From IMG/VR virus record IMGVR_UViG_3300033121_001571: a stretch of 64,000 nucleotides of DNA; one strand, written 5' to 3'. Both the position numbers and the translations under genes were made by a program. The notes beneath the pieces were generated by a model. It saw only the letters and a list, made by a program, of their open reading frames with translations. It was not told the DNA's origin and made no database searches. The stretch comes from a virus. Lineage: Duplodnaviria > Caudoviricetes. This document shows, piece after piece, positions 2,157 to 18,871 of the stretch (within the stretch, counting starts at the first letter, position 1; the number at the start of each line of letters is the position of its first letter).

Positions 2157-2380
2157 AAAGAAAAGTGTTTCTCATAACTCCAGGTAATCATAAAGACTTA
2201 ATTGAGAAAGATCTTTTTCGCAGAAATGAAGAATTATGTGATCAGATTTCACAAGCAATTTCTGCAGTTTACTACTCTGCGGGTAATTCACAATCTGAAG
2301 AGACAAAAAAAGTAATTCAGATGTGCATGCACAATGGTAAACTTGTTGAGTATAGAAAACTAAATAATGAAAACTGTTAA
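2153..2380 (+). CDS. Small hypothetical protein (MKRKVFLITPG...)
   Basis: ATG overlaps the upstream stop (ATGA); fills the gap in a tightly coupled operon. Confidence 0.6.
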   Translation: MKRKVFLITPGNHKDLIEKDLFRRNEELCDQISQAISAVYYSAGNSQSEETKKVIQMCMHNGKLVEYRKLNNENC

Positions 2381-3116: not shown

Positions 3117-3897
3117 TCACTTTAGATTTGTTGCACCTATGTACAATGCTTCTTCATACCTAGCATCTATGTTAGCATCCATTGTAGCACAAAGTTATAG
3201 TGATTGGAGCCTTATTTTAATAGATGATTGTTCTTCTGAGACTGAGATTAAACAGTCTAAGTCAATAATTTCTGTGTTTAAAGAATTATTGAAGAACTTG
3301 GGTCACGATTCAAATAAAATAGAAGTACATTGGAACAGTGAAAATGGTAGAGGAAAACAGTGGGAAGTTTCTAATGTTCTTTATGGAATAAAGCGTTCAA
3401 AAAACGATGACATAATCTGTAGGATTGATGCCGATGACTGTTTAACAGACATAGATGCTTTACAAATTTTGAATAGTGTATATGATTCCAATTCCATGTA
3501 CGCAGTTTGGACTGCTCACAGATGGGGATTTTCAGATAAAAACATAAGTGGTCCATTGCCAAAAAATGCTGATGTGTACAGTTACCCTTGGGTAAGCAGT
3601 CACTTAAAAACATTTAGAAAATTTCTGATAAATAATGTTCCTATGGAAAATTTCACAAATCAACATAATGAAATTGTCAAGAGGTGCGGGGATCAAGCTA
3701 TCTATCTTCCAGTCTTACACATAGCACAAAGTGATAAAAGATCATTTATTCCTAGGTGTATGTACAGATACACAATAAATGATGTCCCAGAAACTTATCA
3801 GACTGATGATGCTCTTTTTCAAAGATTAGAAGCAGAATTTGTGAGAAGCAGAGGATTTATTTCTAGTGGCGTTCCTTGGGAGTCTGTAATACAGTGA
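3106..3897 (+). CDS. GT2 glycosyltransferase
   Basis: PMYNA...LIDDCS...RIDADD. Confidence 0.85.
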   Translation: MGGNHFRFVAPMYNASSYLASMLASIVAQSYSDWSLILIDDCSSETEIKQSKSIISVFKELLKNLGHDSNKIEVHWNSENGRGKQWEVSNVLYGIKRSKNDDIICRIDADDCLTDIDALQILNSVYDSNSMYAVWTAHRWGFSDKNISGPLPKNADVYSYPWVSSHLKTFRKFLINNVPMENFTNQHNEIVKRCGDQAIYLPVLHIAQSDKRSFIPRCMYRYTINDVPETYQTDDALFQRLEAEFVRSRGFISSGVPWESVIQ

Positions 3898-4781
3898 AAA
3901 TCTATCTTAACAGAAATACGATATTTGGCCCTTGGGGCGGTGGTGCAAAGTTCATAAATTCGTTGCATGAATTTCAGAGAAAGTTAAATTACCAAATCGT
4001 TTCACTTGAACAAAATCCCGACGTCATTTTTATAGCGGGCATGGATAGAGACGGTTCACATATTTCTTTAGAAGAAGCTGTTGAATATAAACGTCATTTT
4101 AAAGATGTGAAGCTAGTTTTTAGAATCAATGAAAATGATGCTAGGAAAAACACATTTCACGTTGATCAACGAATATTACAACACCTTCCCAAGATTGATA
4201 AAGTAGTTTATGTATCAACGTGGTTAAGTGATTATTTCAAATCACGAGGTGCACTTAATACGAATAACAAAGTGATCTTAAATGGTGTTGATAGATCTGT
4301 TTTCAAACCAAGCAACAAATTTGAAAATGGAAAAATAAATGTCATGACGTGTCACTGGTCTGACAATTATCTAAAAGGTCAAGATTATGTTGAATTTATG
4401 GATGATTTTGTTGCAACTAGTGACGAGTTTACTTTCACATACATCGGTAGAACAAAAGCTAACTTAAAACATTCTTCACTTGTTCAACCGCTGTTTGGGA
4501 AATTTTTAGCAGATGAAATTGCTAAATATGATTTGTGCATTAATGCATCTAGGTTTGATCCGGGGCCAAATAGCGTCATTGAACCAATATGTTGTGGGGT
4601 ACCAACGTATGTTCACGTTGACGGCGGCGGCGCAGTAGAGTTTGCTGGAGAAGATCATACATTTGCTTCTTTTGATGATTTGAGAAGTATCTTGAAAAAC
4701 AAGAAATACTCTTTAAACAAAGATTCATTTCTTGATTGGGAGTCATCAATCAAGTCATATATTAATTTCATGAGGGAATAA
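3894..4781 (+). CDS. GT4 (GT-B) glycosyltransferase
   Basis: PWGGG, ILNGVD, SRFDPGPNSVIEPICCGVP; GTG start overlaps upstream stop. Confidence 0.8.
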   Translation: MKIYLNRNTIFGPWGGGAKFINSLHEFQRKLNYQIVSLEQNPDVIFIAGMDRDGSHISLEEAVEYKRHFKDVKLVFRINENDARKNTFHVDQRILQHLPKIDKVVYVSTWLSDYFKSRGALNTNNKVILNGVDRSVFKPSNKFENGKINVMTCHWSDNYLKGQDYVEFMDDFVATSDEFTFTYIGRTKANLKHSSLVQPLFGKFLADEIAKYDLCINASRFDPGPNSVIEPICCGVPTYVHVDGGGAVEFAGEDHTFASFDDLRSILKNKKYSLNKDSFLDWESSIKSYINFMRE

Positions 4782-5152
4782 TGGCTAAATTCGTGACTTT
4801 GTTTGAATCATATATGTCAAGTACTTTGAGAAAAAGCTTTCTTAACAAAGAGATAACAGTTGACTCACTTCATGAAATCAAGGATGAAATATCTCGTGTT
4901 GTAAAACTTATCTTCGAAAAATCTTCTATGAATCTATCAGACACTACTATAAACTGGATCTCAGAGCAATATTTCAAAATCACAAAAATATCAAAAGATC
5001 TTCACGTAAAAGAGTTAGTAGTGATGAATGAACACCAAACGTCTGAAATTCCAGACACAGATCTGTTGTTACTGACTAACATTTTTGCAGGTACACAATT
5101 TTCTGTTATGTTAGAAAGCGAACTTCACAAGAGAAACATCAAAAATGACTGA
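4781..5152 (+). CDS. Hypothetical protein, paralog of 5145-5513
   Basis: Coupled ORF; LSDTTINWISEQYF resembles LSNESVNWIAQCYY in the next gene. Confidence 0.65.
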   Translation: MAKFVTLFESYMSSTLRKSFLNKEITVDSLHEIKDEISRVVKLIFEKSSMNLSDTTINWISEQYFKITKISKDLHVKELVVMNEHQTSEIPDTDLLLLTNIFAGTQFSVMLESELHKRNIKND

Positions 5153-5513
5153 TCAAATACCAGAATCAAAATTAGAAAAAGCGCTTGAAACACTTATTTT
5201 GACAAATGTCACTAATACGTTTATGTATGAAAAATTGAATAGAACTACTTGTCTTCAGATATATGGAATGATTTTTAACTTAGTTTCTGAAACAGTGCAA
5301 TCAGCTTCTTTAAGCAATGAATCAGTTAATTGGATAGCACAATGTTATTATGATTCAATCATTATTTCAAATAACACACCTTTAGATCCTCGCATCTTCA
5401 CACAAAGAGCGTTTCTTAAAAACATAGATACACAAGAATTGAAATTAATGTATCTTATGTTCAGAGGTTCAGAGATGGGAATTTCCATTGGCACTGAACT
5501 ACGTAATAGATGA
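5145..5513 (+). CDS. Hypothetical protein, paralog of 4781-5152
   Basis: Coupled ORF with the shared motif. Confidence 0.65.
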   Translation: MTDQIPESKLEKALETLILTNVTNTFMYEKLNRTTCLQIYGMIFNLVSETVQSASLSNESVNWIAQCYYDSIIISNNTPLDPRIFTQRAFLKNIDTQELKLMYLMFRGSEMGISIGTELRNR

Positions 5514-6445
5514 AGATTCATTTTGATAACGTTGATTGGTCAAGCACGACTGGTCCAAATTCTTTTGCATCTACGCTTGGAAAATGTTTAATCGACAAAG
5601 GGCATATTCTTGTAGACGATGGTCCGTCTGCTGACATATCACTAATTTTTATTGAAAAGTCTGGAAAAGCGTTAGCAAATAAAACAGTACAGAGATTAGA
5701 TGGATTTTGGTTTAAACCGTCTGACGTAAGTAAGAACATTAACATACTCAACACATATGTGAATGCTGATAAAGTTGTATTTCAATCTATGTTTGATCTG
5801 GAGTTTTTCCGAAAAGTATTTAAGGAATTTGATGTAACAAAGAGTACAGTGATCAGAAATGGTACATTTATCAAACGATTTTACGAATCAGAAACAATAC
5901 CTGAAATTTCTGAGTTAAGAAAAAAGTATAATCACATCTTTGTATCTTCTTCAAATTGGCACAGGCAAAAAAGACTTAAAGAAAATATGCAGTTATTTGA
6001 ACAACTAAAACACAGATATCACAATAGTTGTTTAGTTGTGTTAGGAAATAACATTGACGTAAGACCAACATCGGCAAATGTTTTACTCGCTGGTTCACAA
6101 TCTCAAGAAATTTGCATGCAGTTGTATGCTGCTGCTGATTGGATGATTCATCTAGCGTGGTTAGACCACTGTCCCAATGTGGTTGTTCACGCTTTATCTC
6201 AAGAAACCCCAGTCATATGTTCATCTTCTGGTGGTACTAAAGAGCTTGTGAAAAATTTTGGACACATATTGTTTGAAGAAGCTGAGTTTGATTTTCAACT
6301 TGTTGATTATGATAAACCACCAGAGATAGACTTAACACAAGTAGAATACTTGTCTGATGTATCTGGAAAAGATCATGAAAATGTTGATATAAGTGTTGTT
6401 ACTGATCGTTACATTTCTGTGTTTGAAAATACACTAAAACAATGA
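5510..6445 (+). CDS. GT4 glycosyltransferase
   Basis: TGPNSF, VIRNG, DHCPNVVVHALSQETPVICSSSGG. Confidence 0.8.
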   Translation: MKIHFDNVDWSSTTGPNSFASTLGKCLIDKGHILVDDGPSADISLIFIEKSGKALANKTVQRLDGFWFKPSDVSKNINILNTYVNADKVVFQSMFDLEFFRKVFKEFDVTKSTVIRNGTFIKRFYESETIPEISELRKKYNHIFVSSSNWHRQKRLKENMQLFEQLKHRYHNSCLVVLGNNIDVRPTSANVLLAGSQSQEICMQLYAAADWMIHLAWLDHCPNVVVHALSQETPVICSSSGGTKELVKNFGHILFEEAEFDFQLVDYDKPPEIDLTQVEYLSDVSGKDHENVDISVVTDRYISVFENTLKQ

Positions 6446-7353
6446 AAGTTTACGTTCTCCCGCCAAATGAGTCTTGGATAGTTGATAGATTTGTTAAAGA
6501 GTGGTATGAAGACAATTCTGATATTTCAACTCTAGATTTAGAGCAGGCTTCAGTGATATGGTTATTGAGTGATTGGTGTTGGAGACAAATCGATTATTCT
6601 TTGTTGAAGAGAAAGAAAGTACTCACAACAGTACATCACATAGTAAAAGAAAAATTTGGTGCTGCTGAGTTAAATGACTTCTTGGAAAGAGACAAGATCA
6701 CAACAGCATATCACGTGTATAATCAACACACAAAAGCGTTTGTTGAAAATTTAACTAAAAAACCTGTTCACTTAGTGAAGTATTGGGCCAACAACAAGAT
6801 TTGGAAAAAATCACATCTATCAATAGCAAATTTGAAATCTAAGTACAAACTTCCTGCGAATAAGTACTTGATTGGTTCTTTTCAAAGAGACACAGAAGGC
6901 GCTGGTATAAGCCGCGGTGTTTTTTTACCTAAGCTTGAAAAAGGGCCAGATCTTTTTGCGGATTATGTAGAGAACTTGGTAAAGACGCGAGAAGACACAC
7001 ACGTAATTCTTTGTGGGTGGCGTAGACAGTACCTAGTAAACAGACTAAAAGATATTTCTGTGCCATTCTCGTATTTAGAGTTACCGTCTCAAGACATAGT
7101 AAATGAATTGTACCAAACGCTGGATCTTTATGTTGTGTCTTCACGTTGTGAAGGCGGTCCACAAGCATTAATTGAATGTGGGTTATTGAATGTACCAACT
7201 ATATCACGAAATGTTGGAATAGCAACACAAGTATTAGAACAAGATTCTGTTAATGATGATCTGACGAAAGCTTTGCCTTCTGTACCAAATGTAGATGCAA
7301 TGAAATTACCTCATGGATATGTTCCATACAGAAAGTTGTTAGAGGCATTATGA
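6442..7353 (+). CDS. GT4 glycosyltransferase
   Basis: EKGPD; SRCEGGPQALIECGLLNVP (E-X7-E motif). Confidence 0.85.
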   Translation: MKVYVLPPNESWIVDRFVKEWYEDNSDISTLDLEQASVIWLLSDWCWRQIDYSLLKRKKVLTTVHHIVKEKFGAAELNDFLERDKITTAYHVYNQHTKAFVENLTKKPVHLVKYWANNKIWKKSHLSIANLKSKYKLPANKYLIGSFQRDTEGAGISRGVFLPKLEKGPDLFADYVENLVKTREDTHVILCGWRRQYLVNRLKDISVPFSYLELPSQDIVNELYQTLDLYVVSSRCEGGPQALIECGLLNVPTISRNVGIATQVLEQDSVNDDLTKALPSVPNVDAMKLPHGYVPYRKLLEAL

Positions 7354-8153
7354 TGTACGATAATATCTGTTTTTTGTTAGTCACTTGTTGTTTAGAGAAA
7401 ACTCGCTCTGATTTACTAAAAAAAGTAGTAGATAATCTTTTGTCAGAATTTCCAGAAGCTGTATCAAGAGTTTGTGTTTTTGATAATGCGTCTACGCAAG
7501 ATGTTAGTTGTTTAACGAAGTTTTCTAATTATTACAAGTGTGAAACAAATGTAGGATATTGGTCAGCTATTGATTGGTGGTTGAGATCAGGACTAGCTGA
7601 TAAACGTTACTCGTATATCATAGAATCAGATCTGATACATCATGATTTTTTCATGCTGAACAATTGTTCAGATCTTTTAGATCACAGAGATGACATAGGT
7701 GCAGTAAGAGTTCATGAATATTCTGTTGAAAACAAACATTTATACGACAAAGACAATCCAGTTAAAGGTTCTAAGAAAAACGCTTGGAGATCTCACACTA
7801 ACAAAGTAACAAATGAAAAAGTTACTTTAACACAAATTAAAGATAAGTTATTTGAATCTAATTTCTTAACACACCTGCCCGCGTTGAATAGAACAAGTTG
7901 TTTGCTTGATTGTTTTGATAAACTTAAGAATAAAGATTTTTGTGAACTAGATTTTCAAAAATTGTATCATGATCACTATCAAAAAATAGCAGTTTTAGAC
8001 GGTGGTATTTTTGTTGATAATGCTGGATTCGAATCTGGATTAATAACTGGTTCGTGGACATCTCAATCAACGCTTGATAAGATTGGGTACAAAAACACTC
8101 GATTTACTAGATTAGTTGACACCAGTGAAATTAAGGTTCAAAAGTTACACTGA
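7350..8153 (+). CDS. Putative GT-A glycosyltransferase
   Basis: VFDNAST, NVGYW, IIESD motifs. Confidence 0.6.
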   Translation: MMYDNICFLLVTCCLEKTRSDLLKKVVDNLLSEFPEAVSRVCVFDNASTQDVSCLTKFSNYYKCETNVGYWSAIDWWLRSGLADKRYSYIIESDLIHHDFFMLNNCSDLLDHRDDIGAVRVHEYSVENKHLYDKDNPVKGSKKNAWRSHTNKVTNEKVTLTQIKDKLFESNFLTHLPALNRTSCLLDCFDKLKNKDFCELDFQKLYHDHYQKIAVLDGGIFVDNAGFESGLITGSWTSQSTLDKIGYKNTRFTRLVDTSEIKVQKLH

Positions 8154-8196
8154 ACGTTCATTATACAAAATGCTTTGTTATGTGTAAGATACTTGA

Positions 8197-9267
8197 GTGA
8201 AATATCTGATTGTTGGTGGAACTGGGTCTCTGGGACAAAAACTTGTAAAAAAATTGATCAGCAATGATCAATATGTTTCTGTTTACTCTAGAGATGAAGC
8301 AAAACAGTGGACATTTCGAAATGAACTTAGAAATTCAGACTTATCAGAAAATGCTGATCTATATTACAGATCTCACATAGGTGACGTGAGAGATAAATCT
8401 AGACTACAAGAGGTTATCAGAAGATTTGAACCAAATGTGATAATTGTTGCTTCAGCTCTTAAGCACGTAGAGACTTGTGAATATGCTCCAGTTGAAAGCA
8501 TCAAAACTAACACTATAGGAGTTCAAAATGTCATTGACATAGTCAACGAAGAAGACACTAATGTTGAAAAAGTCTTATTAGTCAGCACTGACAAAGCGTG
8601 TTCTCCAATAAACGTTTACGGTATGTCAAAAGCAATATCAGAAAGATTGATCACAAGCCAGTGTATAGCTGGAAAACGATCTGTAAATTACCTTTGTGTG
8701 AGATATGGAAATGTGTTAGAAAGTAGAGGAAGTATAATTCCACTATTTAAACACCAAATTAAGAATTCAAGTGAACTAACTGTCACAGATCCTAATATGA
8801 CAAGATTCATAATGACGTTAGATCAAAGTGTAAACTTGATTCTTAACACGCTAAAACACGGCAATTCTGGTGAGACTTGGGTACCAAAGTTACCCTCTAT
8901 GAAAATCATAGATCTAGCTGAAATATTTTCTCAGATGTTTAACAAAAAAATCAAGATAGTCGGAATTAGACCTGGCGAAAAGATACATGAAGATCTATTG
9001 AATGATTCTGAGATCACAAGAACAAGATTAACAAATGTGTATGGAGATTACTATGTGTTAAATAGTTCTATTTTAGCAACGCAATCTTTCAAAGATTTGA
9101 ATAACGCTTATACTAGTAACAACAAAGAAAGTCTTCTTGACAAAGATCAACTTCACAGTTTACTAGTGAAATACGGTGTTTTAAACATGCAACTTGAAGA
9201 TTTTCATGGTAGAAAAATAGAAGAAATTTTAGATGCAAGCGTCGTCTCACTGGGAGAAAATAAGTGA
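8197..9267 (+). CDS. UDP-GlcNAc 4,6-dehydratase/epimerase (PseB/FnlA/CapD family)
   Basis: GGTGSLG, SRDEAKQ, ALKHV, STDKAC, YGMSK, RYGNVLESRGS, GIRPGEKIHE. Confidence 0.92.
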   Translation: MKYLIVGGTGSLGQKLVKKLISNDQYVSVYSRDEAKQWTFRNELRNSDLSENADLYYRSHIGDVRDKSRLQEVIRRFEPNVIIVASALKHVETCEYAPVESIKTNTIGVQNVIDIVNEEDTNVEKVLLVSTDKACSPINVYGMSKAISERLITSQCIAGKRSVNYLCVRYGNVLESRGSIIPLFKHQIKNSSELTVTDPNMTRFIMTLDQSVNLILNTLKHGNSGETWVPKLPSMKIIDLAEIFSQMFNKKIKIVGIRPGEKIHEDLLNDSEITRTRLTNVYGDYYVLNSSILATQSFKDLNNAYTSNNKESLLDKDQLHSLLVKYGVLNMQLEDFHGRKIEEILDASVVSLGENK

Positions 9268-10418
9268 AAATATATCCTCTGTTTAAGCCACACGTTGTAA
9301 CTCAAAGCGCGGTAGAAAAATTATCTAAAGTCTTAGATTCAGGTTATCTTAATGAAGGTGTGCAAGTCACTGAATTTAAAAAAGAACTTGCAAATTTATT
9401 CGGTCTTTCAACGAGGAAATTAACGTTAACAAACAGTTGCACTTCAGCACTTACTTTAGCGCTTAAAGCATCAGGAGTAGTACCAGGATCAAAAGTCATA
9501 ACAACAGCTATGACGTGCGTTGCAACAAATACACCTATTGTAACCGCTGGTGCTCGTCCAGTGTGGGCAGATGTTGATCCAGAAACTGGTATGTTAACTG
9601 TTGAAAGCATCAATAAAGTCTTAACTCCTGAAGTAAAAGCTGTCGTTGTTGTAGCGTGGGCAGGATCTCCTCCCGAGCTAGATGTTTTATATGACTTTTG
9701 TCAACGTAAGAATGTGAAACTAATATTAGACGCTGCACATGCTTTTGGTGCAAAGTATCACAATAAACAAATTCATCACTGGGCAGATATGACATGTTAT
9801 TCATTTCAAGCTATTAAACACATTACTACGGGAGACGGCGGCGCGATTGTTTGTAATTCAGAAGAATCTCAATCGTTAGTAGAACGATTAAAATGGTTTG
9901 GTTTAGACAGAGATTCATCAAAAGATGAAAAGGGAGATTGGAAAGGTCAACAATGGGACGTTGACATACTAGACGCTGGATACAAATTTAATATGAACAA
10001 CATTTCTGCAGCAATTGGGTTATCGCAGATACCTCACGTTGAAAGAATATTGAACACTCATAAAGCAAATGCAAAACAATATGATAAGTTGTTTGAAAAC
10101 GACAATGTCGTTCGTCCTCTTAAGCAATATAGAGGTGCTGAATCTAGTTATTGGGTTTATACTGTTAGGCTAAGGAAAACTTCTTCTAATATGACAAGAG
10201 ATCATTTAGTAAAAGTCTTGAACCAAGAAGGAGTCAATGCAGGATTGGTTCATGTTCCAAATCATGATTATACAACGTTCAAAGAATATTATAGATTTTT
10301 ACCTAAGTTGAAAGAGTTTTCAGATAGTCAATTTTCTATTCCGTGTGGATGGTGGTTAACTTCTGCAGATATCACAACAATTTACAACAAAATACAAGAT
10401 GTGTTAAGGTTAGCATGA
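9264..10418 (+). CDS. DegT/DnrJ/EryC1/StrS PLP-dependent sugar aminotransferase
   Basis: NSCTSAL, DAAHAFG, SFQAIKHITTGDGG. Confidence 0.92.
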   Translation: MKIYPLFKPHVVTQSAVEKLSKVLDSGYLNEGVQVTEFKKELANLFGLSTRKLTLTNSCTSALTLALKASGVVPGSKVITTAMTCVATNTPIVTAGARPVWADVDPETGMLTVESINKVLTPEVKAVVVVAWAGSPPELDVLYDFCQRKNVKLILDAAHAFGAKYHNKQIHHWADMTCYSFQAIKHITTGDGGAIVCNSEESQSLVERLKWFGLDRDSSKDEKGDWKGQQWDVDILDAGYKFNMNNISAAIGLSQIPHVERILNTHKANAKQYDKLFENDNVVRPLKQYRGAESSYWVYTVRLRKTSSNMTRDHLVKVLNQEGVNAGLVHVPNHDYTTFKEYYRFLPKLKEFSDSQFSIPCGWWLTSADITTIYNKIQDVLRLA

Positions 10419-11107
10419 ACAAGTTAAAAATACACTTTCTCTCTTACAGAGACTGGGCAGAACCAATTTTGCAATCAGTAAAGAGACATCCAAGAGTTGG
10501 ATACGTAGATCAATCAAAAACAATTAATGATTACTTAAGCAATGGAGTTAAACACTATGACATAGTGATGTTATGTGGGTGGTCAAATTGGGATTTTGAG
10601 TCAAAACTATATAGTTTTGATATCAAAACTATCATTAATGATAATCTCAATAAAACACTTCATGTTGGACTTCACTGTGCTGAAAGTGATCTGTTTCACA
10701 CTACACCACTTCAAAATCAAATCATCAATGGCGTAAAAGACTCTAAACACAGAGTATTCAAAGTGGGTCTACCCGAGTTAATTCATAGAGAGTACTCACA
10801 CGAAGTTGATTTGTCTTTAAGAGGAAATATTGAAGATGTTTTTAAACAGCTTACTTACACAGGAATTGTTCTCTACGATAGATTTTTAGATGATTATCCA
10901 AATATTGTTTGGAAGACATGGCCAGAAGAAAACAACAGATTTCAAAGTAGAACTCCCGCAGATTCTGAGATGAAAAACTTCAAAGATATGACATGTGAAC
11001 AGATGTATGATTTCATCAGATGTCTTGGTGATCCATACCCAAATGCTTTTGTGTCTGATGAAACGGGTGAACTTTATTTTGAAAAAGTGAGGTTCAAAAA
11101 GAAATGA
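10415..11107 (+). CDS. Divergent formyltransferase-like protein
   Basis: YRDW, GWS, PLQNQI, IRCLGDPYPNAF; paralog of the next gene; ATG 10415 overlaps upstream stop. Confidence 0.65.
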   Translation: MNKLKIHFLSYRDWAEPILQSVKRHPRVGYVDQSKTINDYLSNGVKHYDIVMLCGWSNWDFESKLYSFDIKTIINDNLNKTLHVGLHCAESDLFHTTPLQNQIINGVKDSKHRVFKVGLPELIHREYSHEVDLSLRGNIEDVFKQLTYTGIVLYDRFLDDYPNIVWKTWPEENNRFQSRTPADSEMKNFKDMTCEQMYDFIRCLGDPYPNAFVSDETGELYFEKVRFKKK

Positions 11108-11778
11108 ACGTACTGTTTTGTGCTTACAGAGACTGGGGATTGTCTGTTTATCAGAATTTTGTAGAGAAGAGATCTTATCTTTGGCACAAAGATTCTAAAA
11201 AGATTCACTGTAGTTTATGTTCTACAAAAGAATCTCTAGAAGAAATGGTAAAATCACAACATTATGATATAATCGTGTTGTTGGGATGGAGCTGGAAAGT
11301 ACCGAATCATATCGTAGATTCTCACTATGTCATAGGAATGCACCCATCAGATTTACCTGATTATGCAGGTGGTTCACCGTTACAAAACCAAATACTTGAC
11401 GGTTTAACTATGACTAAGGCAACGTTATTCAAGTTAGATAAAAATTTTGATTCTGGTCCAATACTTGGAAAAGTTGATCTGTCGTTAGAAGGTCACATAG
11501 AAGATATCTTTAAAAATCTTAGTGCTGCATCGAATATTTTGTTAGACTCATTTTTTCAGTCTTATCCCAACATAACTGAGATAGCACAGACAAAAACATT
11601 TTCTAAAAAGAGGTTGAAACCAGAAGACTCTTCTCTAACGAAAGAGAAATTATTAAACATGTCTGCTAAAAAACTTTATGATGAAATCAGGTGCAGAGAA
11701 GATCCTTACCCAAACGTAACACTTGAGGATGAAACTGGCACCCTAATCTTTAAAAGAGTGGAGTTCATTCCAAAATGA
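11104..11778 (+). CDS. Sugar N-formyltransferase (Fmt family)
   Basis: HPSDLPDYAGGSPLQNQI; FDSGPI. Confidence 0.82.
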   Translation: MNVLFCAYRDWGLSVYQNFVEKRSYLWHKDSKKIHCSLCSTKESLEEMVKSQHYDIIVLLGWSWKVPNHIVDSHYVIGMHPSDLPDYAGGSPLQNQILDGLTMTKATLFKLDKNFDSGPILGKVDLSLEGHIEDIFKNLSAASNILLDSFFQSYPNITEIAQTKTFSKKRLKPEDSSLTKEKLLNMSAKKLYDEIRCREDPYPNVTLEDETGTLIFKRVEFIPK

Positions 11779-12518
11779 AAAGTGTATTTGTTGGTACGAT
11801 GTTTTCGGGTGAAGGTGATTTCAAATACTGTTGTGATGCAATCAAAAAGCAGAGAAGTGTTGGAGTGACACATTGTGTCATAACAGATCTTTCTGAGATA
11901 GATGCCCACAATAAATTGTGGGAATCGTGGAACAACGTAAAACACTCTTACGATCTTTTCATAAAAGTTGATGCTGATACAGTTTTAAGTCACAACAATA
12001 TTATTGCAAATATTCTAAGTGTATTTGAAGCAAACCCAGATCTCACTGGGTTACAAGCGCCATTATACGATTACTACACTGATTCTATGATAAATGGATT
12101 GAACTGTTTTACAAAAGATGTTGTGTTTAATGTCACAAGCGATAAACTTTTCTGTGACAGAAATGTAGACACAAACCACAAACAAGTTTTCAAAGCAAAA
12201 GATCTAAAAAAAGAATGGAATATAACTCCAGCTGGTTTTCACTGTGTAAATGCTAATGAAAAACAATCATTTCATTACGGAGTGCACAGAAAACTTAAAA
12301 ATCAAGATGATATCATTTCTTTAGTGAATAATGCTTTTCAAAAACACAAAGATAAAAATAGAGCATACTGTCTTTTAGGAGCACACTTTGCACAAACGCT
12401 AGATAAACAACATAACTACACAGATGAAGCTTTCACAAAAGCTTTTACATCAACAAAGAAAAACTTCAAAAATCTGTGTAAAAACACTCTAAATGTTGAG
12501 GTAGTTGATGATTATTGA
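11775..12518 (+). CDS. Putative GT-A glycosyltransferase
   Basis: IKVDADTV DxD motif in a glycosylation operon. Confidence 0.55.
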   Translation: MKSVFVGTMFSGEGDFKYCCDAIKKQRSVGVTHCVITDLSEIDAHNKLWESWNNVKHSYDLFIKVDADTVLSHNNIIANILSVFEANPDLTGLQAPLYDYYTDSMINGLNCFTKDVVFNVTSDKLFCDRNVDTNHKQVFKAKDLKKEWNITPAGFHCVNANEKQSFHYGVHRKLKNQDDIISLVNNAFQKHKDKNRAYCLLGAHFAQTLDKQHNYTDEAFTKAFTSTKKNFKNLCKNTLNVEVVDDY

Positions 12519-13425
12519 TCTAGTAGACAGTTTAGAATACACAACAACTAATTGTTTTGCTCACCAGTTACACAAGAAATTATCGCAGTTTGCCAATGTT
12601 AAAACAGTTGAGTTAAAGAACTTATCCAACATAGATTTCAAAAATTGCGAATTAGTTGTTTCTCGCCTAAAACAAAGAACTCTTTTTAGAGAGTTGAGTA
12701 GAATTAGTGTCTTTTTGAAAGACACACCAATTGTGATTTATGATCAAGATCCTTGGGAAGCTTTTCGAAAAACTTCTCCATATCATGGAACGTATAAAGC
12801 ATGCAGAGACGGTCTAAACGTGCAATTTTTTGCAGTGACGACCAGATGGTGGCAAGAATATCTTTCTAAGTCTGGATATAGTTCCCAGTTTGTAAAAATG
12901 TGGGTGCTTCCTGAGTACACTCTAAGTGAAGTAACAACCGCTTCTAGAAGAACACAACTAGGCTTTCTTGGAACTTTACATTCACATAGAAAAAAGCTCT
13001 TTAATGAGCTTACAAATGATAACATAGATGTCATTTGTAAAACATCAACACTTGGCTACGCAGCATATCTACAGGCTCTTTCTAAGATAGAGTGTTTTAT
13101 TCATTCTGAAAATTCTCCAATTGAAATGTTTGATCAGAACGCTAATATGAATTATGGATTGTGGGTAAAAGAAATTGAGGCTATGTCACAAGGTTGTTTT
13201 TGTATCAGGGATAAAGGATTAGACTCTGAGTCTTATCTTGAGAACACAAAAACTGTATTTTTGTATGATAACGTATCAGAAGTTAAAGACATTGTCAAAA
13301 ATTTGAATAATCTCTCTGAAAAAGAGAAAATAGAGATGTTAAATGAATCTATTCAATTTGTTAGATCTAAAGACGTGTGGGGTGAAACTGCAAACATCTT
13401 ACTTCTGAACAAAGGTATAATTTGA
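12505..13425 (+). CDS. Putative GT-B (CgeB-like) glycosyltransferase
   Basis: DQDPWE, LGFLGTLHSHRK, KEIEAMSQGCF. Confidence 0.55.
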   Translation: MMIIDLVDSLEYTTTNCFAHQLHKKLSQFANVKTVELKNLSNIDFKNCELVVSRLKQRTLFRELSRISVFLKDTPIVIYDQDPWEAFRKTSPYHGTYKACRDGLNVQFFAVTTRWWQEYLSKSGYSSQFVKMWVLPEYTLSEVTTASRRTQLGFLGTLHSHRKKLFNELTNDNIDVICKTSTLGYAAYLQALSKIECFIHSENSPIEMFDQNANMNYGLWVKEIEAMSQGCFCIRDKGLDSESYLENTKTVFLYDNVSEVKDIVKNLNNLSEKEKIEMLNESIQFVRSKDVWGETANILLLNKGII

Positions 13426-13439
13426 CGTATTATTGATAT

Positions 13440-14579
13440 GTGAAAGTAATTCATAGCGTTTCAGTAATTGGTCAAGGATTTGTCGGTGGTTCACTATCTA
13501 AAGTCTTAATGGAGAAAGGTGTTGCTGTATGTGCATATGATATTGCAGGGAAATACGTTAGCGGCGTGTTTCAAGCACACGATTTTATTAGACACAATTC
13601 ATGTGTAGATCTTGAAGAAGCGATTGATTATTTACAGACACGAGATATGAAATTTTCAAACATTTATTTTGTGTGCTTACCAACACCAATGAATGCTGAC
13701 GGTAGTGCTGATCTCTCTATCATTGAGAGCACTCTTAAAGACTTAGCTTCTTCACCAAGAAAAAAAATAGTTGTTATCAAATCAACAGTTCCACCTGGTT
13801 CTACTGAACGTTGGAACAAAGAATACAAAGACTCGTCAATTAGAATCATATTCAATCCTGAATTTTTACGTGAAGCTTCTGCATTAGATGATATGAGAAA
13901 CCAAGACAGAATTGTTTTGGGTGGCCCTAGACCAGAGATAAATTCTGTCAAAAGATTTTATGAGTCTGTTTTTCCAAATGTACCCATCATCAAAACATCA
14001 TCAACAACTGCAGAGATGGTAAAATATGTGACTAACATTCATTTAGCAGTGAAAGTTTCACTAGCAAATGAATTCTATCAAATCTGTGAAGTTCTAGATA
14101 AAAGAGGATTAAACATTGACTATGATAAGGTCATTGAGTATGCAACAGTTGATAAGCGACTAGGCAATAGTCACTGGAAAGTTCCTGGCCCTATGCCAGC
14201 TGATGATACTGGTGATCCTGCGTTCGGGTTTGGCGGATCGTGTGTTATTGGTCAATCAAGTGTAAGACTAGGTTCAAATCGTTGTATCTCAGTAGAACAA
14301 ATGTATGAGATTCATCAATTTACTAATGACATGACATTGCTTAGTACAGATATGACTTGTAACAACTTACAGGTGAAATCAGTTTTGAAATCAACTAGAA
14401 AAAAATACAGTGGAAATGTAATAGAATTTAAGATTGGTGATAAAACAATAACAACAACGCCAGAACATTTTTTCCCAGTGATAAGAGAAGGAAAGTTATT
14501 ACTGCTTCAAGCTTGTGAAATTGTTAACACTGATGAATTATTTCTCCTTGAAGAAGATAAAGATGAAAAGAACAAATAA
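13440..14579 (+). CDS. ugd: UDP-glucose/GDP-mannose dehydrogenase N-extein (267 aa) fused to split intein N-half (14241-14576)
   Basis: GQGFVG, CLPTP, KSTVPPG, NPEFLRE, AEMVKY, GFGGS, then Cys1 (CVIGQS) and block-B TTPEH, then stop. Confidence 0.92.
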   Translation: MKVIHSVSVIGQGFVGGSLSKVLMEKGVAVCAYDIAGKYVSGVFQAHDFIRHNSCVDLEEAIDYLQTRDMKFSNIYFVCLPTPMNADGSADLSIIESTLKDLASSPRKKIVVIKSTVPPGSTERWNKEYKDSSIRIIFNPEFLREASALDDMRNQDRIVLGGPRPEINSVKRFYESVFPNVPIIKTSSTTAEMVKYVTNIHLAVKVSLANEFYQICEVLDKRGLNIDYDKVIEYATVDKRLGNSHWKVPGPMPADDTGDPAFGFGGSCVIGQSSVRLGSNRCISVEQMYEIHQFTNDMTLLSTDMTCNNLQVKSVLKSTRKKYSGNVIEFKIGDKTITTTPEHFFPVIREGKLLLLQACEIVNTDELFLLEEDKDEKNK

Positions 14580-15422
14580 AGTAAAAATTTCTTGTCAAGA
14601 GTGTGGCATTGAAATATTGGTGACTAAGCAGAAATCATTAAAGAAAAAATATTGCTCTAGAAATTGTCAAGCTAAACATTATCGTGAGAGTGGGATGTTT
14701 AGTGGAGTAAAAAATCCCTCTTACGGAAAAGTGTATAGAACAAAAATAACTCATCCTGAATGGGCTAAAAAAATTCGATCAAACACAAAAGGAATTAATT
14801 CTGGAAATAAGAATGGGATGAAAAATCCTGAAGTTGCCAAACGTATGAGTAAGACTCGCCGTGAAAAAGTTACTTCTTCTTTGGAATATAGAAAAAATTT
14901 AAGCAAAAAAATGATTGCTGCGTGGAAAGCTGGGAAGTATGAAAATGTAAATGTAGGAAGATGCAAATGGTACACTCTTCTTAAGAAGAATGGCTCAACT
15001 TGTAAAGTTCAAGGTAAGTGGGAACTTGCATATGCAAAATATTTAGATGATAATGATATTGAATTTTTAGCTCATCGAGGAAGAATATCTTATGTAGATG
15101 ATTTTGGAAATTCTAGATCATATTATCCTGATTTTTTTCTTGTGAAAAATAAAGTGTATGTAGAAATTAAAGCTGATTATTGGTTAAAATTGCAAGAAAA
15201 CAAATTTTCTCTGATTAAAAATCAGAATGTTAACATTAGTATCGAAATTCTCACAAAAAAAGAATTGAAAGAACTTGGTGTAATGTGAAAATTCAAGCAA
15301 AAAAAATTGATTCGATAACAGTAAAACACTACGATGGTTTCGTATATAACGTTGAAGTTAAATCTTTAGATCAAGAAAATGATGATTTATTTTGGATTGT
15401 TAATGATGTGTTAACACACAAT
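14241..15422 (+). mobile_element. Split intein with intervening homing endonuclease gene (fractured gene)
   Basis: IntN C1...TxxH; IntC VYNVEV...THN followed by Cys+1; out-of-frame endonuclease ORF between them. Confidence 0.92.
14563..15288 (+). CDS. Free-standing homing endonuclease (Zn-ribbon + NUMOD3-like + PD-(D/E)XK)
   Basis: CQECG...YCSRNC; NPSYGK and NGMKNPEV repeats; QGKWE...YYPDFFL...VEIK; likely ATG at 14563. Confidence 0.85.
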   Translation: MKRTNKVKISCQECGIEILVTKQKSLKKKYCSRNCQAKHYRESGMFSGVKNPSYGKVYRTKITHPEWAKKIRSNTKGINSGNKNGMKNPEVAKRMSKTRREKVTSSLEYRKNLSKKMIAAWKAGKYENVNVGRCKWYTLLKKNGSTCKVQGKWELAYAKYLDDNDIEFLAHRGRISYVDDFGNSRSYYPDFFLVKNKVYVEIKADYWLKLQENKFSLIKNQNVNISIEILTKKELKELGVM

Positions 15423-15575
15423 TGTTTCATCAAGGATCTTAATGCACTTATGTCACTATCGAAAACGCTGGGAATTAATCCATCAACTATGAATGGTGCT
15501 TGGGAAAAGAATTTAGAAGTTAGACCTCAAAGAGATTGGGAAAAATTGTTAGGTAGAGCCGTAAGCAAAAAATGA
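15285..15575 (+). CDS. ugd: Split intein C-half (46 aa) + dehydrogenase C-extein (CFIKD..., 50 aa)
   Basis: LTHN|CFIKDLNAL completes the GFGGS-CFxKD active-site motif. Confidence 0.92.
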   Translation: MKIQAKKIDSITVKHYDGFVYNVEVKSLDQENDDLFWIVNDVLTHNCFIKDLNALMSLSKTLGINPSTMNGAWEKNLEVRPQRDWEKLLGRAVSKK

Positions 15576-16396
15576 ACTTTAACAATTTACCTACGAATAA
15601 ACCTCATATCTCTTTCAGTGAAGCCAAAGTTTGGAAAGAGTGTGGTTGGCGTCACAGATTGAGATATATCAAAAACATTGATCTTGATAAGCCATCTGCT
15701 GCTTTAACGTTCGGTACTGCACAACACGCAGCAATTGAAAATCTGTTAACGACTGGTGATTCACAATTAGAATCACATATAGAATTTTTACGTACACAAT
15801 GGACTGAAAATCCTGATTTTGAAAAATCAGATCCTATTGAAAAAGTTGTTCTGCAATTGAAAACTATAACTTCTGAGTTTATTCCATTTTTAAATGAAAC
15901 GTTTCCCGGTTGGAAACATGAGCACTCAGAGTTTTTATTGTATGAACAGATAAGTGATAAACCACACGCGTTTAAAGGATTCATAGATCTTATCATATCT
16001 GTGCCTCATAAAAACAAAAGAAAATACTGGATCTTAGATCTTAAGACTACGACTTGGGGATGGACTTCAGAAAAAAAATCTGATGAGTCTATGAGATCAC
16101 AGTTGTTGTTATATAAGCATTTTTGGTGCACAAAACAAAACATACCTCTTAATGATGTGTTATGTGGATTTATTCTCTTAAAAAGAACTGTTGAAAAACA
16201 AAATAAACGATGTGAACTAGTCAAGGTTTCATCAGGTGATATCAGCATAGGTAGATCACTAAAGGTTGTTTCAAACATGTTGTATGCTGTAAACAACAAT
16301 AAAGTTTTCAAAAATTTTGATTCATGTCGTTGGTGTCCATACAGGGGTTCAGAACCAAATTGGTCTGTGTGGTCAAATTGCAAAACACACGATTAA
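15572..16396 (+). CDS. PD-(D/E)XK nuclease, Cas4/AddB/RecB-like
   Basis: ISFS...C; FGTAQH; GFIDL; ILDLKT; QLLLY; CRWCPY...C. Confidence 0.85.
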   Translation: MNFNNLPTNKPHISFSEAKVWKECGWRHRLRYIKNIDLDKPSAALTFGTAQHAAIENLLTTGDSQLESHIEFLRTQWTENPDFEKSDPIEKVVLQLKTITSEFIPFLNETFPGWKHEHSEFLLYEQISDKPHAFKGFIDLIISVPHKNKRKYWILDLKTTTWGWTSEKKSDESMRSQLLLYKHFWCTKQNIPLNDVLCGFILLKRTVEKQNKRCELVKVSSGDISIGRSLKVVSNMLYAVNNNKVFKNFDSCRWCPYRGSEPNWSVWSNCKTHD

Positions 16397-16436
16397 AGGA
16401 TTGTACTTGTGATTCGCGCAAAATATCTTGTTCTAA

Positions 16437-17714
16437 ATGGCTTTTCTGAATGCGCAATCAAAAAAACACAAGATTTTGATGTTAAGTGACCATCCGCTTA
16501 GCGTTAGCGGAGTTGGAGTACAATCAAGATATCTGATCAATGGTTTATTGAGCACAAATAAATATTCATTTAGGTGCTTCGGCGGAGCACTAAAGCATGA
16601 ATCTATGGAAACTATCACAGTTAATAGTGATTTTGTCATCAAGCCAACAAATGGATTTGGTGACAAAAATATGTTAAGACAAGCGCTGGTCGAGGTAAAA
16701 CCAGATGCACTTCTGTTGTTCACCGATCCTAGATTTTTTATCTGGGTATGGGAAATGGAAGATGAAGTTCACCAAGTTTGTCCTATTGTTTACAACCACA
16801 TTTGGGATAATCCTCCTTGGCCGGAGTACAACAGGGTGCTTTACGAAAGCACAGATTATTTGAATTGTATCAATCATCCAATCTATGAGATGGTCTCTCA
16901 AAGATTTCCAGAAAAATCATCTTATATACCACATGCAGTGCCGCCAGATCTTTTTTATCCCTTAACCCCAGATGCACAAGCAAAAAACAGAGTTGCATTA
17001 TATGGACCTTCAAGAGCAGATCACTTTATAGTACTCTTTGTTTCAAGAAATGCTATGAGAAAATCACCCGGCGATATCATAGTTGGATTCAAGATGTTTC
17101 TTGATGAACTAGAGAAAAAAGAAGGTCATAGAAAAGCTACGTTAGTTATGCACACAGATCCTCTTGATCAAGAGGGTCCAAATTTACATCACATCATTGA
17201 TGTATTTGGTGTTAAAGAAAATGTCTTCTTTTCAAGAGATAGAATTGGGTTCAATGAAATGAACTTACTCTATAACTCTGTAGATGCTGTGATTCAAGTT
17301 TCAAGAAATGAAGGATTTGGTCTGTCTTTGTTAGAGGCAAAGATGGCAGAAAAACCAATTATCTCTAGCATGACTGGTGGATGCACAAGACAAGTGTTAG
17401 ACCATGAAACAGGCGAAGAGTATGGTGCAGCACTAAAACCAGACGCAAGAATGTTAGTTGGAAACCAATTAACTCCGTACATCTATGAAGATGTGTGTTC
17501 TCATGAAACGATAAGCAATGGAATTATGAAAGTATACAACATGGGTCCAACTGGAAGAGCCGTTCTTGGAAAGAAAGCACGACAACATGCTATGAAACAC
17601 TACAACATGAATCACCTCATTTCAGAGTGGGATAGAACTCTAGAAGACACTATAAACAAATGGAAGAGTGGGTTGTTACCAAATAACAAGAGATGGGCAG
17701 TCAAGGAGCTGTGA
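16437..17714 (+). CDS. GT4 glycosyltransferase
   Basis: SGVG, RNAMRK, EGFGLSLLEA. Confidence 0.9.
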   Translation: MAFLNAQSKKHKILMLSDHPLSVSGVGVQSRYLINGLLSTNKYSFRCFGGALKHESMETITVNSDFVIKPTNGFGDKNMLRQALVEVKPDALLLFTDPRFFIWVWEMEDEVHQVCPIVYNHIWDNPPWPEYNRVLYESTDYLNCINHPIYEMVSQRFPEKSSYIPHAVPPDLFYPLTPDAQAKNRVALYGPSRADHFIVLFVSRNAMRKSPGDIIVGFKMFLDELEKKEGHRKATLVMHTDPLDQEGPNLHHIIDVFGVKENVFFSRDRIGFNEMNLLYNSVDAVIQVSRNEGFGLSLLEAKMAEKPIISSMTGGCTRQVLDHETGEEYGAALKPDARMLVGNQLTPYIYEDVCSHETISNGIMKVYNMGPTGRAVLGKKARQHAMKHYNMNHLISEWDRTLEDTINKWKSGLLPNNKRWAVKEL

Positions 17715-18871
17715 TGAATAAGAAATCTGTAGTACTACGTGCACCTGTGTTAACACAAAGTGGTTATGGAGTGCACTCACGTCAAGTTGCTTCTTGGCTT
17801 CTTTCTAGAAATGACGTAGATCTGAGTATCATTCCAACGCAATGGGGTGACACTCCATGGATTTTAAATGAGAAGTTTGAAAGTGGTTTAATTGGAAAGA
17901 TTCTAGAAAAGTGCACCTCACCCAAGCAAAAACCTGATTTTTCTTATCAACTTGTTTTACCCAATGAGTGGGATGCTTCTATGGCTAACAAAAATGTTGG
18001 GATGACAGCAGCAGTTGAAACAGATCGTTGTCATCCTTCGTGGCCATCGTTTTGTAACAAAATGGATGCAGTAATTTTTCCGTCTACTCACGCGTTGGCA
18101 AGCATCAATAACGTTGAAAAAATCAAAACTAAGACTTACGTTGTACCTGAATCTTATTCAGAGGTTTTTTTAAGTGATCCATTGAAAGTAGATTTTGGAT
18201 TTAAGACACCTTATAACTTTTTGATGGTTGGACAGTTAACTGGAAACAATCCTCACAATGACAGAAAGAACATATTCTACACTATTAAGTGGTTGTGTGA
18301 AGTTTTTAAGGATGATCCAAATGTTGGTGTTGTTATAAAGACAAATTCAGGTAGAAACACTTTAATCGATCGAAAAATAGTCACTAATTTATTTGAGCAG
18401 CTAATGCTCGAAGCTCGCAGAGGACCATATCCAAAGTTTTATTTGTTGCATGGCGATATGAGTGATTCTGAGATGTGTAGTTTGTACAAAGATTCATCTG
18501 TGAAAGCACTAGTAAATCTAGGACACGGTGAAGGATTCGGCCTTCCTATTCTTGAAGCAGCAGTTACTGGTCTTCCAATTATCGCAACTGGTTGGTCTGG
18601 TTACACAGATTTCTTAACAAAGAAAGACTACGTGAGCGTGAATTATCAGTTAGAACAGATTCCAAATTCTAGAGTTGATCAACAAATCTTTGTCAAAGAT
18701 GCTAGGTGGGCGGCGCCTTCGAGTGAAGACTTTAAGAGAAAAGTGAAGAAGTTTATGACATCAAATGAGCCTCTCCAGTGGGCAAACGATCTTAAAGTTA
18801 GAATAAGGGATTCGCACAGTGCTGAATCAATAAATCAGTTGTACAACATTGTTTTTGAGGAGTTGCAATAA
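17714..18871 (+). CDS. GT4 glycosyltransferase
   Basis: SGYGVHSR, DRKNI, HGEGFGLPILEA. Confidence 0.9.
   Translation: MNKKSVVLRAPVLTQSGYGVHSRQVASWLLSRNDVDLSIIPTQWGDTPWILNEKFESGLIGKILEKCTSPKQKPDFSYQLVLPNEWDASMANKNVGMTAAVETDRCHPSWPSFCNKMDAVIFPSTHALASINNVEKIKTKTYVVPESYSEVFLSDPLKVDFGFKTPYNFLMVGQLTGNNPHNDRKNIFYTIKWLCEVFKDDPNVGVVIKTNSGRNTLIDRKIVTNLFEQLMLEARRGPYPKFYLLHGDMSDSEMCSLYKDSSVKALVNLGHGEGFGLPILEAAVTGLPIIATGWSGYTDFLTKKDYVSVNYQLEQIPNSRVDQQIFVKDARWAAPSSEDFKRKVKKFMTSNEPLQWANDLKVRIRDSHSAESINQLYNIVFEELQ

What the first reader, a model, noticed from the sequence alone, without database searches (positions are those of the whole stretch)
13440..15575. UDP-glucose dehydrogenase fractured at its catalytic Cys by a naturally split intein
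Seen: gene 1 ends GFGGS|CVIGQS...TTPEH...stop (IntN, 112 aa, 14241-14576). Gene 3 starts with GTG and reads MKIQAKKI...VYNVEV...LTHN|CFIKDLNAL (IntC, 46 aa). Splicing restores GFGGS-CFIKD, with Cys+1 being the UGDH catalytic nucleophile. Known: natural split inteins (cyanobacterial DnaE; phage gp41, NrdJ, IMPDH fractured genes) mostly occupy replication or nucleotide enzymes, and contiguous inteins exist in UDP-glucose dehydrogenases. Inference: the enzyme depends on protein trans-splicing. A split intein in a sugar-nucleotide enzyme is unusual to my knowledge and is a candidate new orthogonal pair with native Cys1/Cys+1.
Basis: partly seen in the sequence, partly recalled or inferred. Interest (0 to 1): 0.88.

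Follow-up and report, generated by a model that had tools for sequence, protein, structure and literature searches.

The report
Split-intein-fractured phage sugar dehydrogenase gene
An uncultured large phage carries a UDP-glucose-dehydrogenase-like gene in two pieces that a naturally split intein must join as proteins, with a selfish DNA-cutting enzyme gene between them; the layout is a known kind, but this host enzyme and this endonuclease type were not found described for it.

Summary
Gene 1 (13440-14579) is a 267-aa N-extein ending GFGGS plus a 112-aa IntN. Gene 3 (15285-15575) is a 46-aa IntC ending HN plus a 50-aa C-extein starting CFIKD. A 241-aa endonuclease ORF (14563-15288) lies between them and overlaps both.

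Intein-free homologues (~310-335 aa) are colinear with the predicted 317-aa spliced product. Other relatives carry a contiguous ~150-aa mini-intein at the same site, which IntN and IntC tile end to end. All splicing residues are invariant across 13 IntN and 12 IntC clusters.

The halves are predicted to dock (0.82 against 0.00 for the best control). No intron signal was found.

The endonuclease is a zinc ribbon, NUMOD3-like helices and a T7-endonuclease-I-like PD-(D/E)xK domain. It is not the GIY-YIG or Vsr-like type of the published fractured genes. In relatives the same family also sits free-standing just downstream of intein-free alleles.

This is a new member of the 'fractured gene' class (Dassa 2009), not a new kind. 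This scan had already noted the same layout on other DNA.

Caveat: the enzyme lacks the UDP-binding C-terminal domain, so its substrate is uncertain.

The parts
13440..14240 (+). N-extein, 267 aa: NAD-binding domain and most of the central domain of a UGDH-like dehydrogenase. Ends GFGGS.
   Evidence: PF03721 E=1.2e-28 and PF00984 E=1e-12. 63-69% identical to the intein-free homologues listed.
14241..14579 (+). IntN, 112 aa (14241-14576) plus TAA stop. Has Cys1 and block B T73-x-x-H76. The last 17 nt overlap the endonuclease ORF.
   Evidence: PF14890 E=3e-5, below the Pfam cutoff. Cys1 and the block-B His are invariant in 13 clusters. hhalign to the contiguous mini-intein profile, positions 1-108: prob 99.9, E=2.9e-35.
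14563..15288 (+). Free-standing homing-endonuclease-like ORF, 241 aa. Parts: 4-Cys zinc ribbon, NUMOD3-like helical repeats, and a C-terminal T7-endonuclease-I-like PD-(D/E)xK nuclease (E154, D190, E201, K203).
   Evidence: Family profile against T7 endonuclease I (1m0d): E=3.4e-10, with the PDF...ExK motifs aligned.
15285..15422 (+). IntC, 46 aa, with a GTG start inside the endonuclease stop (GTGA overlap). Block F is VYNVEV; block G is THN.
   Evidence: His45, Asn46 and Cys+1 are invariant in 12 clusters. hhalign to the contiguous mini-intein profile (match spans 91-152; the window's IntC itself starts at about 108): prob 99.8, E=1.2e-27.
15423..15575 (+). C-extein, 50 aa plus stop. Starts with the catalytic Cys (CFIKD), carries the rest of the central domain, and ends GRAVSKK.
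   Evidence: Colinear with the C-termini of intein-free homologues. 64-70% identical to the C-exteins of other split alleles.

Best explanation
This is a 'fractured gene'. A mobile mini-intein sits immediately before the catalytic cysteine of a short phage UGDH-like dehydrogenase. It has been cut in two at the canonical endonuclease-insertion loop by a free-standing homing endonuclease gene.

The three ORFs overlap: 17 nt at the first junction and 4 nt at the second. They are probably translated from one message (inferred).

IntN and IntC would then dock and carry out class-1 protein trans-splicing: N-S acyl shift at Cys1, trans-thioesterification to Cys+1, Asn46 cyclisation, then S-N shift. 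This would join GFGGS to CFIKD and yield a 317-aa enzyme whose active-site nucleophile is the +1 Cys.

The endonuclease is expected to cut endonuclease-less alleles in co-infecting phages and to spread the element by recombinational repair.

Shown here: the anatomy, the homology, the conserved splicing residues, the allele series and the predicted docking.
Inferred: splicing, endonuclease activity and target, and co-transcription.
For: - Exact motifs and coordinates.
- Intein-free, contiguous-intein and other split alleles all align at one site.
- IntN and IntC tile the contiguous mini-intein.
- The contiguous-intein profile hits solved inteins: Mja KlbA 2jmz E=1.9e-12, PI-PkoII, the NrdJ-1 intein and Hedgehog Hint.
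- Cys1, the block-B His, His-Asn and Cys+1 are invariant although the IntN sequences are only 28-42% identical.
- Complex prediction: score 0.82, best of 3 controls 0.00. That mark was reached by 58 of 80 solved complexes and 2 of 110 mismatched pairs. The runs agree in at least 94% of contacts and the partner pLDDT is at least 80. My own alignments were used, so the counts hold only roughly. Split-intein complexes have been solved, so the pass may reflect likeness to them.
- The same three-gene layout occurs in the same synteny (UGDH-like, PDDEXK_1, GT1) in diverged contigs L005, L006/L007, L010, L011 and one NCBI assembly.
- The endonuclease keeps all nuclease motif residues.
- Intein-bearing alleles are scattered among intein-free ones on the extein tree: 9 changes, at least 3 forced by well-supported branches.
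Against: - No experimental splicing or cleavage data exist.
- The window's own IntN and IntC score below Pfam's gathering threshold for PF14890 (24.3 and 10.8 bits against 35.8).
- Synonymous sites are saturated, so the pN/pS values of 0.25-0.74 show only weak constraint.
- The complex pass may be recall of solved split inteins.
- The product lacks the UDP-binding domain of canonical UGDH, so the activity of even the spliced product is unproven.
Confidence: 0.9

Rival explanations
1. Dead gene. The endonuclease insertion broke the intein, the halves no longer splice, and the phage has lost this enzyme.
For: No direct evidence of splicing. Many related phages make do with other alleles. pN/pS for IntN reaches 0.74 in one comparison.
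Against: There are no frameshifts or internal stops. Every splicing residue is invariant in 13 and 12 diverged clusters. Both exteins stay 56-70% identical to relatives. One clade of 8 split alleles has persisted through substantial divergence.
Confidence: 0.05
2. The halves assemble without covalent joining. The intein pieces act only as docking modules and no splicing occurs.
For: Docking is predicted.
Against: All catalytic residues are kept. An unspliced complex would leave a 158-aa domain inserted between GFGGS and the catalytic Cys of the active-site loop.
Confidence: 0.03
3. RNA-level removal. The middle ORF lies in a self-splicing intron, and its excision recreates a contiguous intein.
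For: Endonuclease ORFs often live in group I introns of phage genes.
Against: No Rfam match at E<=1 in 13300-15800. The endonuclease ORF overlaps both neighbours, so no non-coding core is left. Junction spacing differs between related loci: overlap in L005, a 12-nt gap in L006. IntC has its own start codon at the position expected for a split intein.
Confidence: 0.02

Closest known systems
Fractured genes of Dassa, London, Stoddard, Schueler-Furman and Pietrokovski 2009 (PMC2677866): gp41-1, NrdJ-1, IMPDH-1, NrdA-2, TerL and others
   Same: Extein-IntN gene, then a free-standing endonuclease gene, then an IntC-extein gene. Found in phage-like environmental DNA. The endonuclease 3' end overlaps the IntC start. 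The split lies at the canonical endonuclease-insertion loop.
   Different: The host there is always a DNA synthesis or repair enzyme; here it is a sugar-nucleotide-type dehydrogenase in a glycan gene cluster. The endonucleases there are GIY-YIG or Vsr-like; here the nuclease is T7-endonuclease-I-like PD-(D/E)xK with a zinc ribbon. The overlap here is 4 nt, against 6-69 bp reported there.
'udp' / UDP-GlcDH intein allele of archaea and a few bacteria (PMC4071816; PMC4760082, 10 euryarchaeal cases)
   Same: An intein in the same enzyme family.
   Different: In those papers they are treated as ordinary inteins of cellular genomes; neither passage read says they are split. Here the intein is split, the endonuclease is a separate gene of another fold, the host is a phage, and the enzyme is a short two-domain form. 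That the insertion site is identical to the archaeal allele rests on earlier scan notes and memory. It was not tested here.
Cyanobacterial DnaE split intein (Npu, Ssp)
   Same: A natural split at the canonical site with Cys1 and Cys+1.
   Different: From my own knowledge, not checked here: the DnaE halves lie far apart in the genome with no endonuclease between them, and in a cellular replication enzyme.
Collaborative homing of a cyanophage psbA intron with an adjacent free-standing endonuclease (recalled from memory, Zeng, Bonocora and Shub 2009; not checked here)
   Same: A free-standing endonuclease sits next to the target gene and an endonuclease-less intervening element lies in the gene. 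This resembles the alleles with the endonuclease downstream (L012, L014) together with the contiguous mini-intein alleles (L008).
   Different: That case is an intron, not an intein. Cooperation here is only inferred.
T7 endonuclease I (PDB 1m0d, 2pfj; PF05367)
   Same: The nuclease core aligns, including the PD...ExK active-site motifs (E=3.4e-10).
   Different: T7 endonuclease I is a junction-resolving enzyme without a zinc ribbon or NUMOD3-like region. A homing role for this fold was not found in the papers searched.

Membership tests
Class 1 intein (HINT superfamily) | Cys or Ser at intein position 1 | tested here: met
   Cys at 14241-14243. Invariant in 13 of 13 IntN clusters.
Class 1 intein (HINT superfamily) | Block B TxxH | tested here: met
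   T73-P-E-H76 at 14457-14468. His is invariant; Thr is invariant in the 13-row alignment.
Class 1 intein (HINT superfamily) | Block G penultimate His, terminal Asn, and a Cys/Ser/Thr at +1 | tested here: met
   H45-N46 | C47, invariant in 12 of 12 IntC clusters.
Class 1 intein (HINT superfamily) | Sequence or profile homology to known Hint domains | tested here: met
   Direct Pfam hits are below threshold. However, the profile of contiguous alleles hits solved inteins (2jmz E=1.9e-12, NrdJ-1, Hedgehog), and that profile aligns to IntN and IntC at prob 99.9 and 99.8.
Class 1 intein (HINT superfamily) | Removal restores a host protein colinear with intein-free homologues | tested here: met
   Alignment A1. 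L012 and L014 carry intein-free alleles.
Class 1 intein (HINT superfamily) | Protein splicing activity | not testable with these tools
   Needs an expression test.
Fractured gene / naturally split intein (Dassa 2009) | [quoted passage not shown] | tested here: met
   Found on at least 10 contigs.
Fractured gene / naturally split intein (Dassa 2009) | A free-standing homing endonuclease gene lies between the halves, with its 3' end overlapping the IntC gene | tested here: met
   ORF 14563-15288 has intact nuclease motifs. The GTGA overlap is at 15285-15288. Cleavage activity was not tested.
Fractured gene / naturally split intein (Dassa 2009) | The halves associate | tested here: met
   Prediction only. 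Score 0.82 against a best control of 0.00. The mark was reached by 58 of 80 solved complexes and 2 of 110 mismatched pairs. At least 94% contact agreement; partner pLDDT at least 80. The pass may reflect likeness to solved split inteins.
Vsr-like / EDxHD homing endonucleases (I-Bth0305I) | Vsr-type active site with a histidine general base (conserved Asp/His/Asp rather than the canonical PD-(D/E)xK motif) and sequence similarity to Vsr | tested here: not met
   The family's invariant residues are E154, P189, D190 and K203, with D or E at 201. This is a canonical PD-(D/E)xK motif. The profile hits T7 endonuclease I but neither Vsr nor I-Bth0305I at E<=10. Only the general fold is shared: Z 7.2 (rmsd 2.9 A, 80 aligned) and Z 6.7 (rmsd 3.0 A, 90 aligned).
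T7 endonuclease I family (PF05367) | Homology of the nuclease core, including the active-site Asp, Glu and Lys | tested here: met
   Profile A4 against 1m0d: E=3.4e-10 with YxPDF and VExK aligned. Several homologues carry precomputed PF05367 hits. The window's own protein alone gives no PF05367 hit at E<=1.
UDP-glucose/GDP-mannose dehydrogenase family | NAD-binding N domain, central domain and the catalytic Cys in GGxCxxKD | tested here: met
   PF03721 and PF00984. GFGGS+CFIKD aligns with GFGGSCFPKD of PDB 3vtf through the intein-free homologue.
UDP-glucose/GDP-mannose dehydrogenase family | C-terminal UDP-sugar-binding domain (PF03720) | tested here: not met
   The product ends 50 aa after the Cys. 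All close homologues carry only PF03721 and PF00984. The intein-free homologue aligns to residues 6-307 of the 494-aa human enzyme.

The most novel reading that the evidence does not exclude
The zinc-ribbon, T7-endonuclease-I-like proteins may be an undescribed homing endonuclease family dedicated to this one phage gene, and the public data may hold the stages of how an endonuclease joins an intein.

The allele forms seen are:
1. Intein-free gene.
2. Intein-free gene with the endonuclease just downstream.
3. Contiguous mini-intein.
4. Split intein with the endonuclease inside.

A single transition between 'beside the gene' and 'inside the intein' is enough on the endonuclease tree. As a by-product, the family would offer a dozen or more diverged natural Cys1/Cys+1 split-intein pairs.
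Probability: 0.4. Interest if true: 0.65.

Novelty: new member of a known kind. Interest (0 to 1): 0.5.

Why it matters
Natural split inteins are few and are valuable protein-ligation tools. The fractured-gene loci of the 2009 survey all sit in DNA synthesis or repair enzymes.

This locus extends the class to a sugar-metabolism enzyme, with the splice junction exactly at the catalytic nucleophile. The enzyme should therefore be inactive until spliced.

Public metagenomes hold a diverged series of such pairs, together with their contiguous and intein-free alleles. This gives material both for testing orthogonal pairs and for studying how endonucleases and inteins come together.

The endonuclease would add a T7-endonuclease-I-like fold to the known homing endonuclease types, if its activity is shown.

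Tried and rejected
- blastn of the locus against cultured phage records: no match.
- No whole genome is held for this window, so a separate UDP-binding domain elsewhere in the genome could not be sought.
- Rfam at E<=1 over 13300-15800: nothing.
- Promoter and terminator scan: no more sites than in shuffled sequence.
- Single-sequence search of the endonuclease against PDB: only a chance hit.
- Foldseek with the full-length endonuclease model: no match at E<=0.001. The wide structural search and the family profile were needed.
- pN/pS between split alleles: synonymous sites are saturated, so it is uninformative beyond pN<pS.
- HMMs of IntN, IntC and the endonuclease against all window ORFs: no second copy in the window.
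- Literature searches for a split intein in UDP-glucose dehydrogenase found none, and none pairing a T7-endonuclease-I-like endonuclease with a split intein. The library is incomplete, so this is not proof of absence.

Full report
**1. Observation**

The three plus-strand ORFs are exactly as described.

- **Gene 1 (13440-14579, 379 aa).** It matches the NAD-binding domain (PF03721, E=1.2e-28) and positions 2-64 of the 94-position central domain (PF00984, E=1e-12) of the UDP-glucose/GDP-mannose dehydrogenase family. It reads GFGGS and then CVIGQ... through T-P-E-H to a TAA stop.
- **Gene 3 (15285-15575, 96 aa, GTG start).** It reads a block-F-like VYNVEV, then VLTHN, then CFIKDLNAL..., and ends GRAVSKK.
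- **Middle ORF.** A 241-aa ORF starts at ATG 14563, 17 nt before the IntN stop. It ends with TGA 15286-15288, which overlaps the GTG start of gene 3.

An identical gene 1 product, in the same three-gene layout, is on at least 10 contigs; the four places read come from four JGI samples. The arrangement is therefore real and not a mis-assembly.

**2. Both halves belong to one protein**

A search of 5.8 billion proteins and alignment A1 show three kinds of relatives.

- About 100 of the best 120 clusters are intein-free proteins of 308-346 aa. They run GFGGSCF(V/I)KD without interruption and end GRAVSKK-like. They are 57-69% identical over the N-extein part, and the window's C-extein aligns with their last 50 residues.
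- Five clusters of 465-486 aa carry a contiguous insert of 147-153 aa at precisely this point.
- Twelve further clusters of 364-379 aa stop, like gene 1, after an IntN.

Eleven further clusters of about 94-114 aa pair an IntC with the C-extein. The predicted spliced product is 317 aa.

**3. It is an intein**

- The window's own halves score below Pfam's threshold for PF14890.
- A profile of seven contiguous alleles (A5) hits solved inteins and Hint domains by sequence: Mja KlbA 2jmz (E=1.9e-12), PI-PkoII, the Pab PolC intein, the NrdJ-1 intein and Hedgehog.
- The same profile aligns to the IntN family over its positions 1-108 (prob 99.9, E=2.9e-35). It aligns to the IntC family over 91-152, with the window's IntC itself starting at about 108 (prob 99.8, E=1.2e-27).
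- The two halves therefore tile a mini-intein and are split in the loop where endonuclease domains normally nest.
- Cys1, the block-B His, His-Asn and Cys+1 are invariant in 13 IntN and 12 IntC clusters, although the IntN sequences are only 28-42% identical to the window's.
- A complex prediction of IntN with IntC scored 0.82, against 0.00 for the best of three controls. That mark was reached by 58 of 80 solved complexes and 2 of 110 mismatched pairs. The runs agree in at least 94% of contacts and the partner pLDDT is at least 80. My own alignments were used, so the counts hold only roughly. Split-intein complexes have been solved, so this shows likeness rather than proof of binding.
- A search of 1.84 billion representatives with IntN alone found 33 relatives. 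Nine of the ten examined are UGDH-like proteins with the intein at the same site; the tenth is a pretoxin-Hint protein. This is a site-specific intein lineage.

**4. Rivals**

- **RNA-level removal.** It has no support. There is no Rfam match at E<=1. No non-coding space is left, because the endonuclease ORF overlaps both neighbours. Junction spacing also varies between related loci.
- **Decay.** It is unlikely, given intact frames, invariant catalytic residues and a clade of eight split alleles that has persisted through considerable divergence.
- **pN/pS.** The value is below 1 in every segment, but synonymous sites are saturated.

**5. The middle gene**

- It has 66 homologues. Alignment A4 shows four invariant Cys in a zinc-ribbon pattern, a G-x-K-N-G-M-K repeat region that resembles NUMOD3, and an invariant E154, P189-D190 and K203 with D or E at 201.
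- The AlphaFold model has mean pLDDT 87. Its residues 130-241 form a restriction-endonuclease-like domain. The best structural matches are TnsA (Z 9.2, rmsd 2.7 A, 107 aligned), the I-Bth0305I catalytic domain (Z 7.2, rmsd 2.9 A, 80 aligned) and Vsr (Z 6.7, rmsd 3.0 A, 90 aligned).
- By sequence profile, the only significant solved relative is T7 endonuclease I (E=3.4e-10), with YxPDF and VExK aligned.
- It is therefore a canonical PD-(D/E)xK nuclease of the T7-endonuclease-I kind. It is not the Vsr-like or GIY-YIG type reported for fractured genes.

**6. Allele series and mobility**

In every one of the 11 contexts read, this endonuclease family lies in or beside the UGDH-like gene. Eight of them are followed, directly or a few genes on, by the PDDEXK_1 gene and a group-1 glycosyltransferase; the P0130 and L014 loci are not.

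- **Inside a split intein:** the window, L005, L006/L007, L010, L011 and an NCBI assembly.
- **Free-standing, roughly 20-50 nt downstream of an intein-free gene:** L012, L014 and two loci without DNA.
- **Contiguous mini-intein with no endonuclease:** L008/L009.

On a quick tree of the endonucleases, the 8 in-intein and 4 downstream members of known context need only one change of state. Two of the eight in-intein labels rest only on a shared contig length with a split fragment, not on a locus read. The in-intein group ends within 0-2 residues of the point where IntC starts, whereas the downstream group carries tails of 9-34 residues. The supporting branches are at 87-89, not starred.

On a quick tree of the N-exteins, intein-bearing alleles are scattered among intein-free ones: 9 changes, at least 3 forced by starred branches. 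This is what a homing element predicts.

The intein and endonuclease stretch is also lower in G+C (26-31%) than the exteins (34-38%).

**7. Host and enzyme**

- The window is from an uncultured large phage; the longest contig carrying the gene is 284 kb.
- It has a T4-type baseplate wedge and an RNA-ligase/tail-fibre-attachment gene. The closest cultured baseplate relatives are about 30% identical. ARAGORN tRNA genes, one with an unreadable anticodon.
- The fractured gene sits in a glycan-synthesis cluster of about 19 kb.
- The enzyme is a short form. It ends 50 residues after the catalytic Cys and has no PF03720 domain. Its intein-free homologue aligns only to residues 6-307 of the 494-aa human UGDH. 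Its substrate is therefore uncertain.

**8. Comparison and novelty**

- The layout is the 'fractured gene' class of Dassa et al. 2009. Their 26 loci were in DNA helicase, IMPDH, DnaE, NrdA, NrdJ, ligase and terminase genes, with GIY-YIG or Vsr-like endonucleases and a 3' overlap with the IntC gene.
- Contiguous inteins in cellular UGDH genes are catalogued.
- No paper in the searchable library reports a split intein in this enzyme, or this endonuclease type in such a locus.
- This scan had already noted the same layout on other DNA, including one followed-up case with the same verdict. An unverified note reports further split inteins in dnaE of this same genome.
- Verdict: a real and well-supported new member of a known kind, of moderate interest.

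Noticed in passing
window 39755-45708 and 55195-56403, minus strand: ARAGORN tRNA genes in two arrays that read nearly all amino acids. One of them, at 43584-43652, has an unreadable anticodon. This is typical of very large phages.
   Followed up: partly
window 264-18871: A glycan-synthesis cluster of about 19 kb lies upstream of the baseplate and tail-fibre genes. It holds GT2 and GT1 glycosyltransferases, a methyltransferase, a Polysacc_synt_2 dehydratase, a DegT aminotransferase and a formyltransferase.
   Followed up: partly
window 13440-14240 with 15423-15572; homologues P0008-P0120: This is a large family of two-domain UGDH-like proteins of about 310-335 aa. They keep all catalytic motifs but lack the UDP-binding C-terminal domain. 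The substrate is unknown, and a partner that supplies nucleotide binding was not sought.
   Followed up: partly
window 15572-16396: A PD-(D/E)XK (PDDEXK_1, Cas4/exonuclease-like) gene starts inside the stop codon of the C-extein gene. It is a conserved neighbour of the UGDH-like gene in eight of the ten related loci read (not the P0130 or L014 loci), whatever the intein state.
   Followed up: partly
L006 1773-2534 (also L007): A NUMOD3-containing ORF sits between two adjacent epimerase/dehydratase-like genes of 327 and 326 aa. It may be another free-standing endonuclease insertion.
   Followed up: no
L012 2052-2786; L014 2501-3259: The same endonuclease family is free-standing 31-46 nt downstream of intein-free UGDH-like genes. 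These members have longer C-terminal tails than the in-intein members.
   Followed up: yes
same genome, about 104-114 kb beyond the window's end: Unverified first-reader notes report a dnaE gene in five pieces with three split inteins, plus dead intein remnants. If true, this phage carries several fractured genes.
   Followed up: no
window 14250-15450: G+C drops to 26-31% across the IntN, endonuclease and IntC stretch, against 34-38% in the flanking exteins.
   Followed up: no
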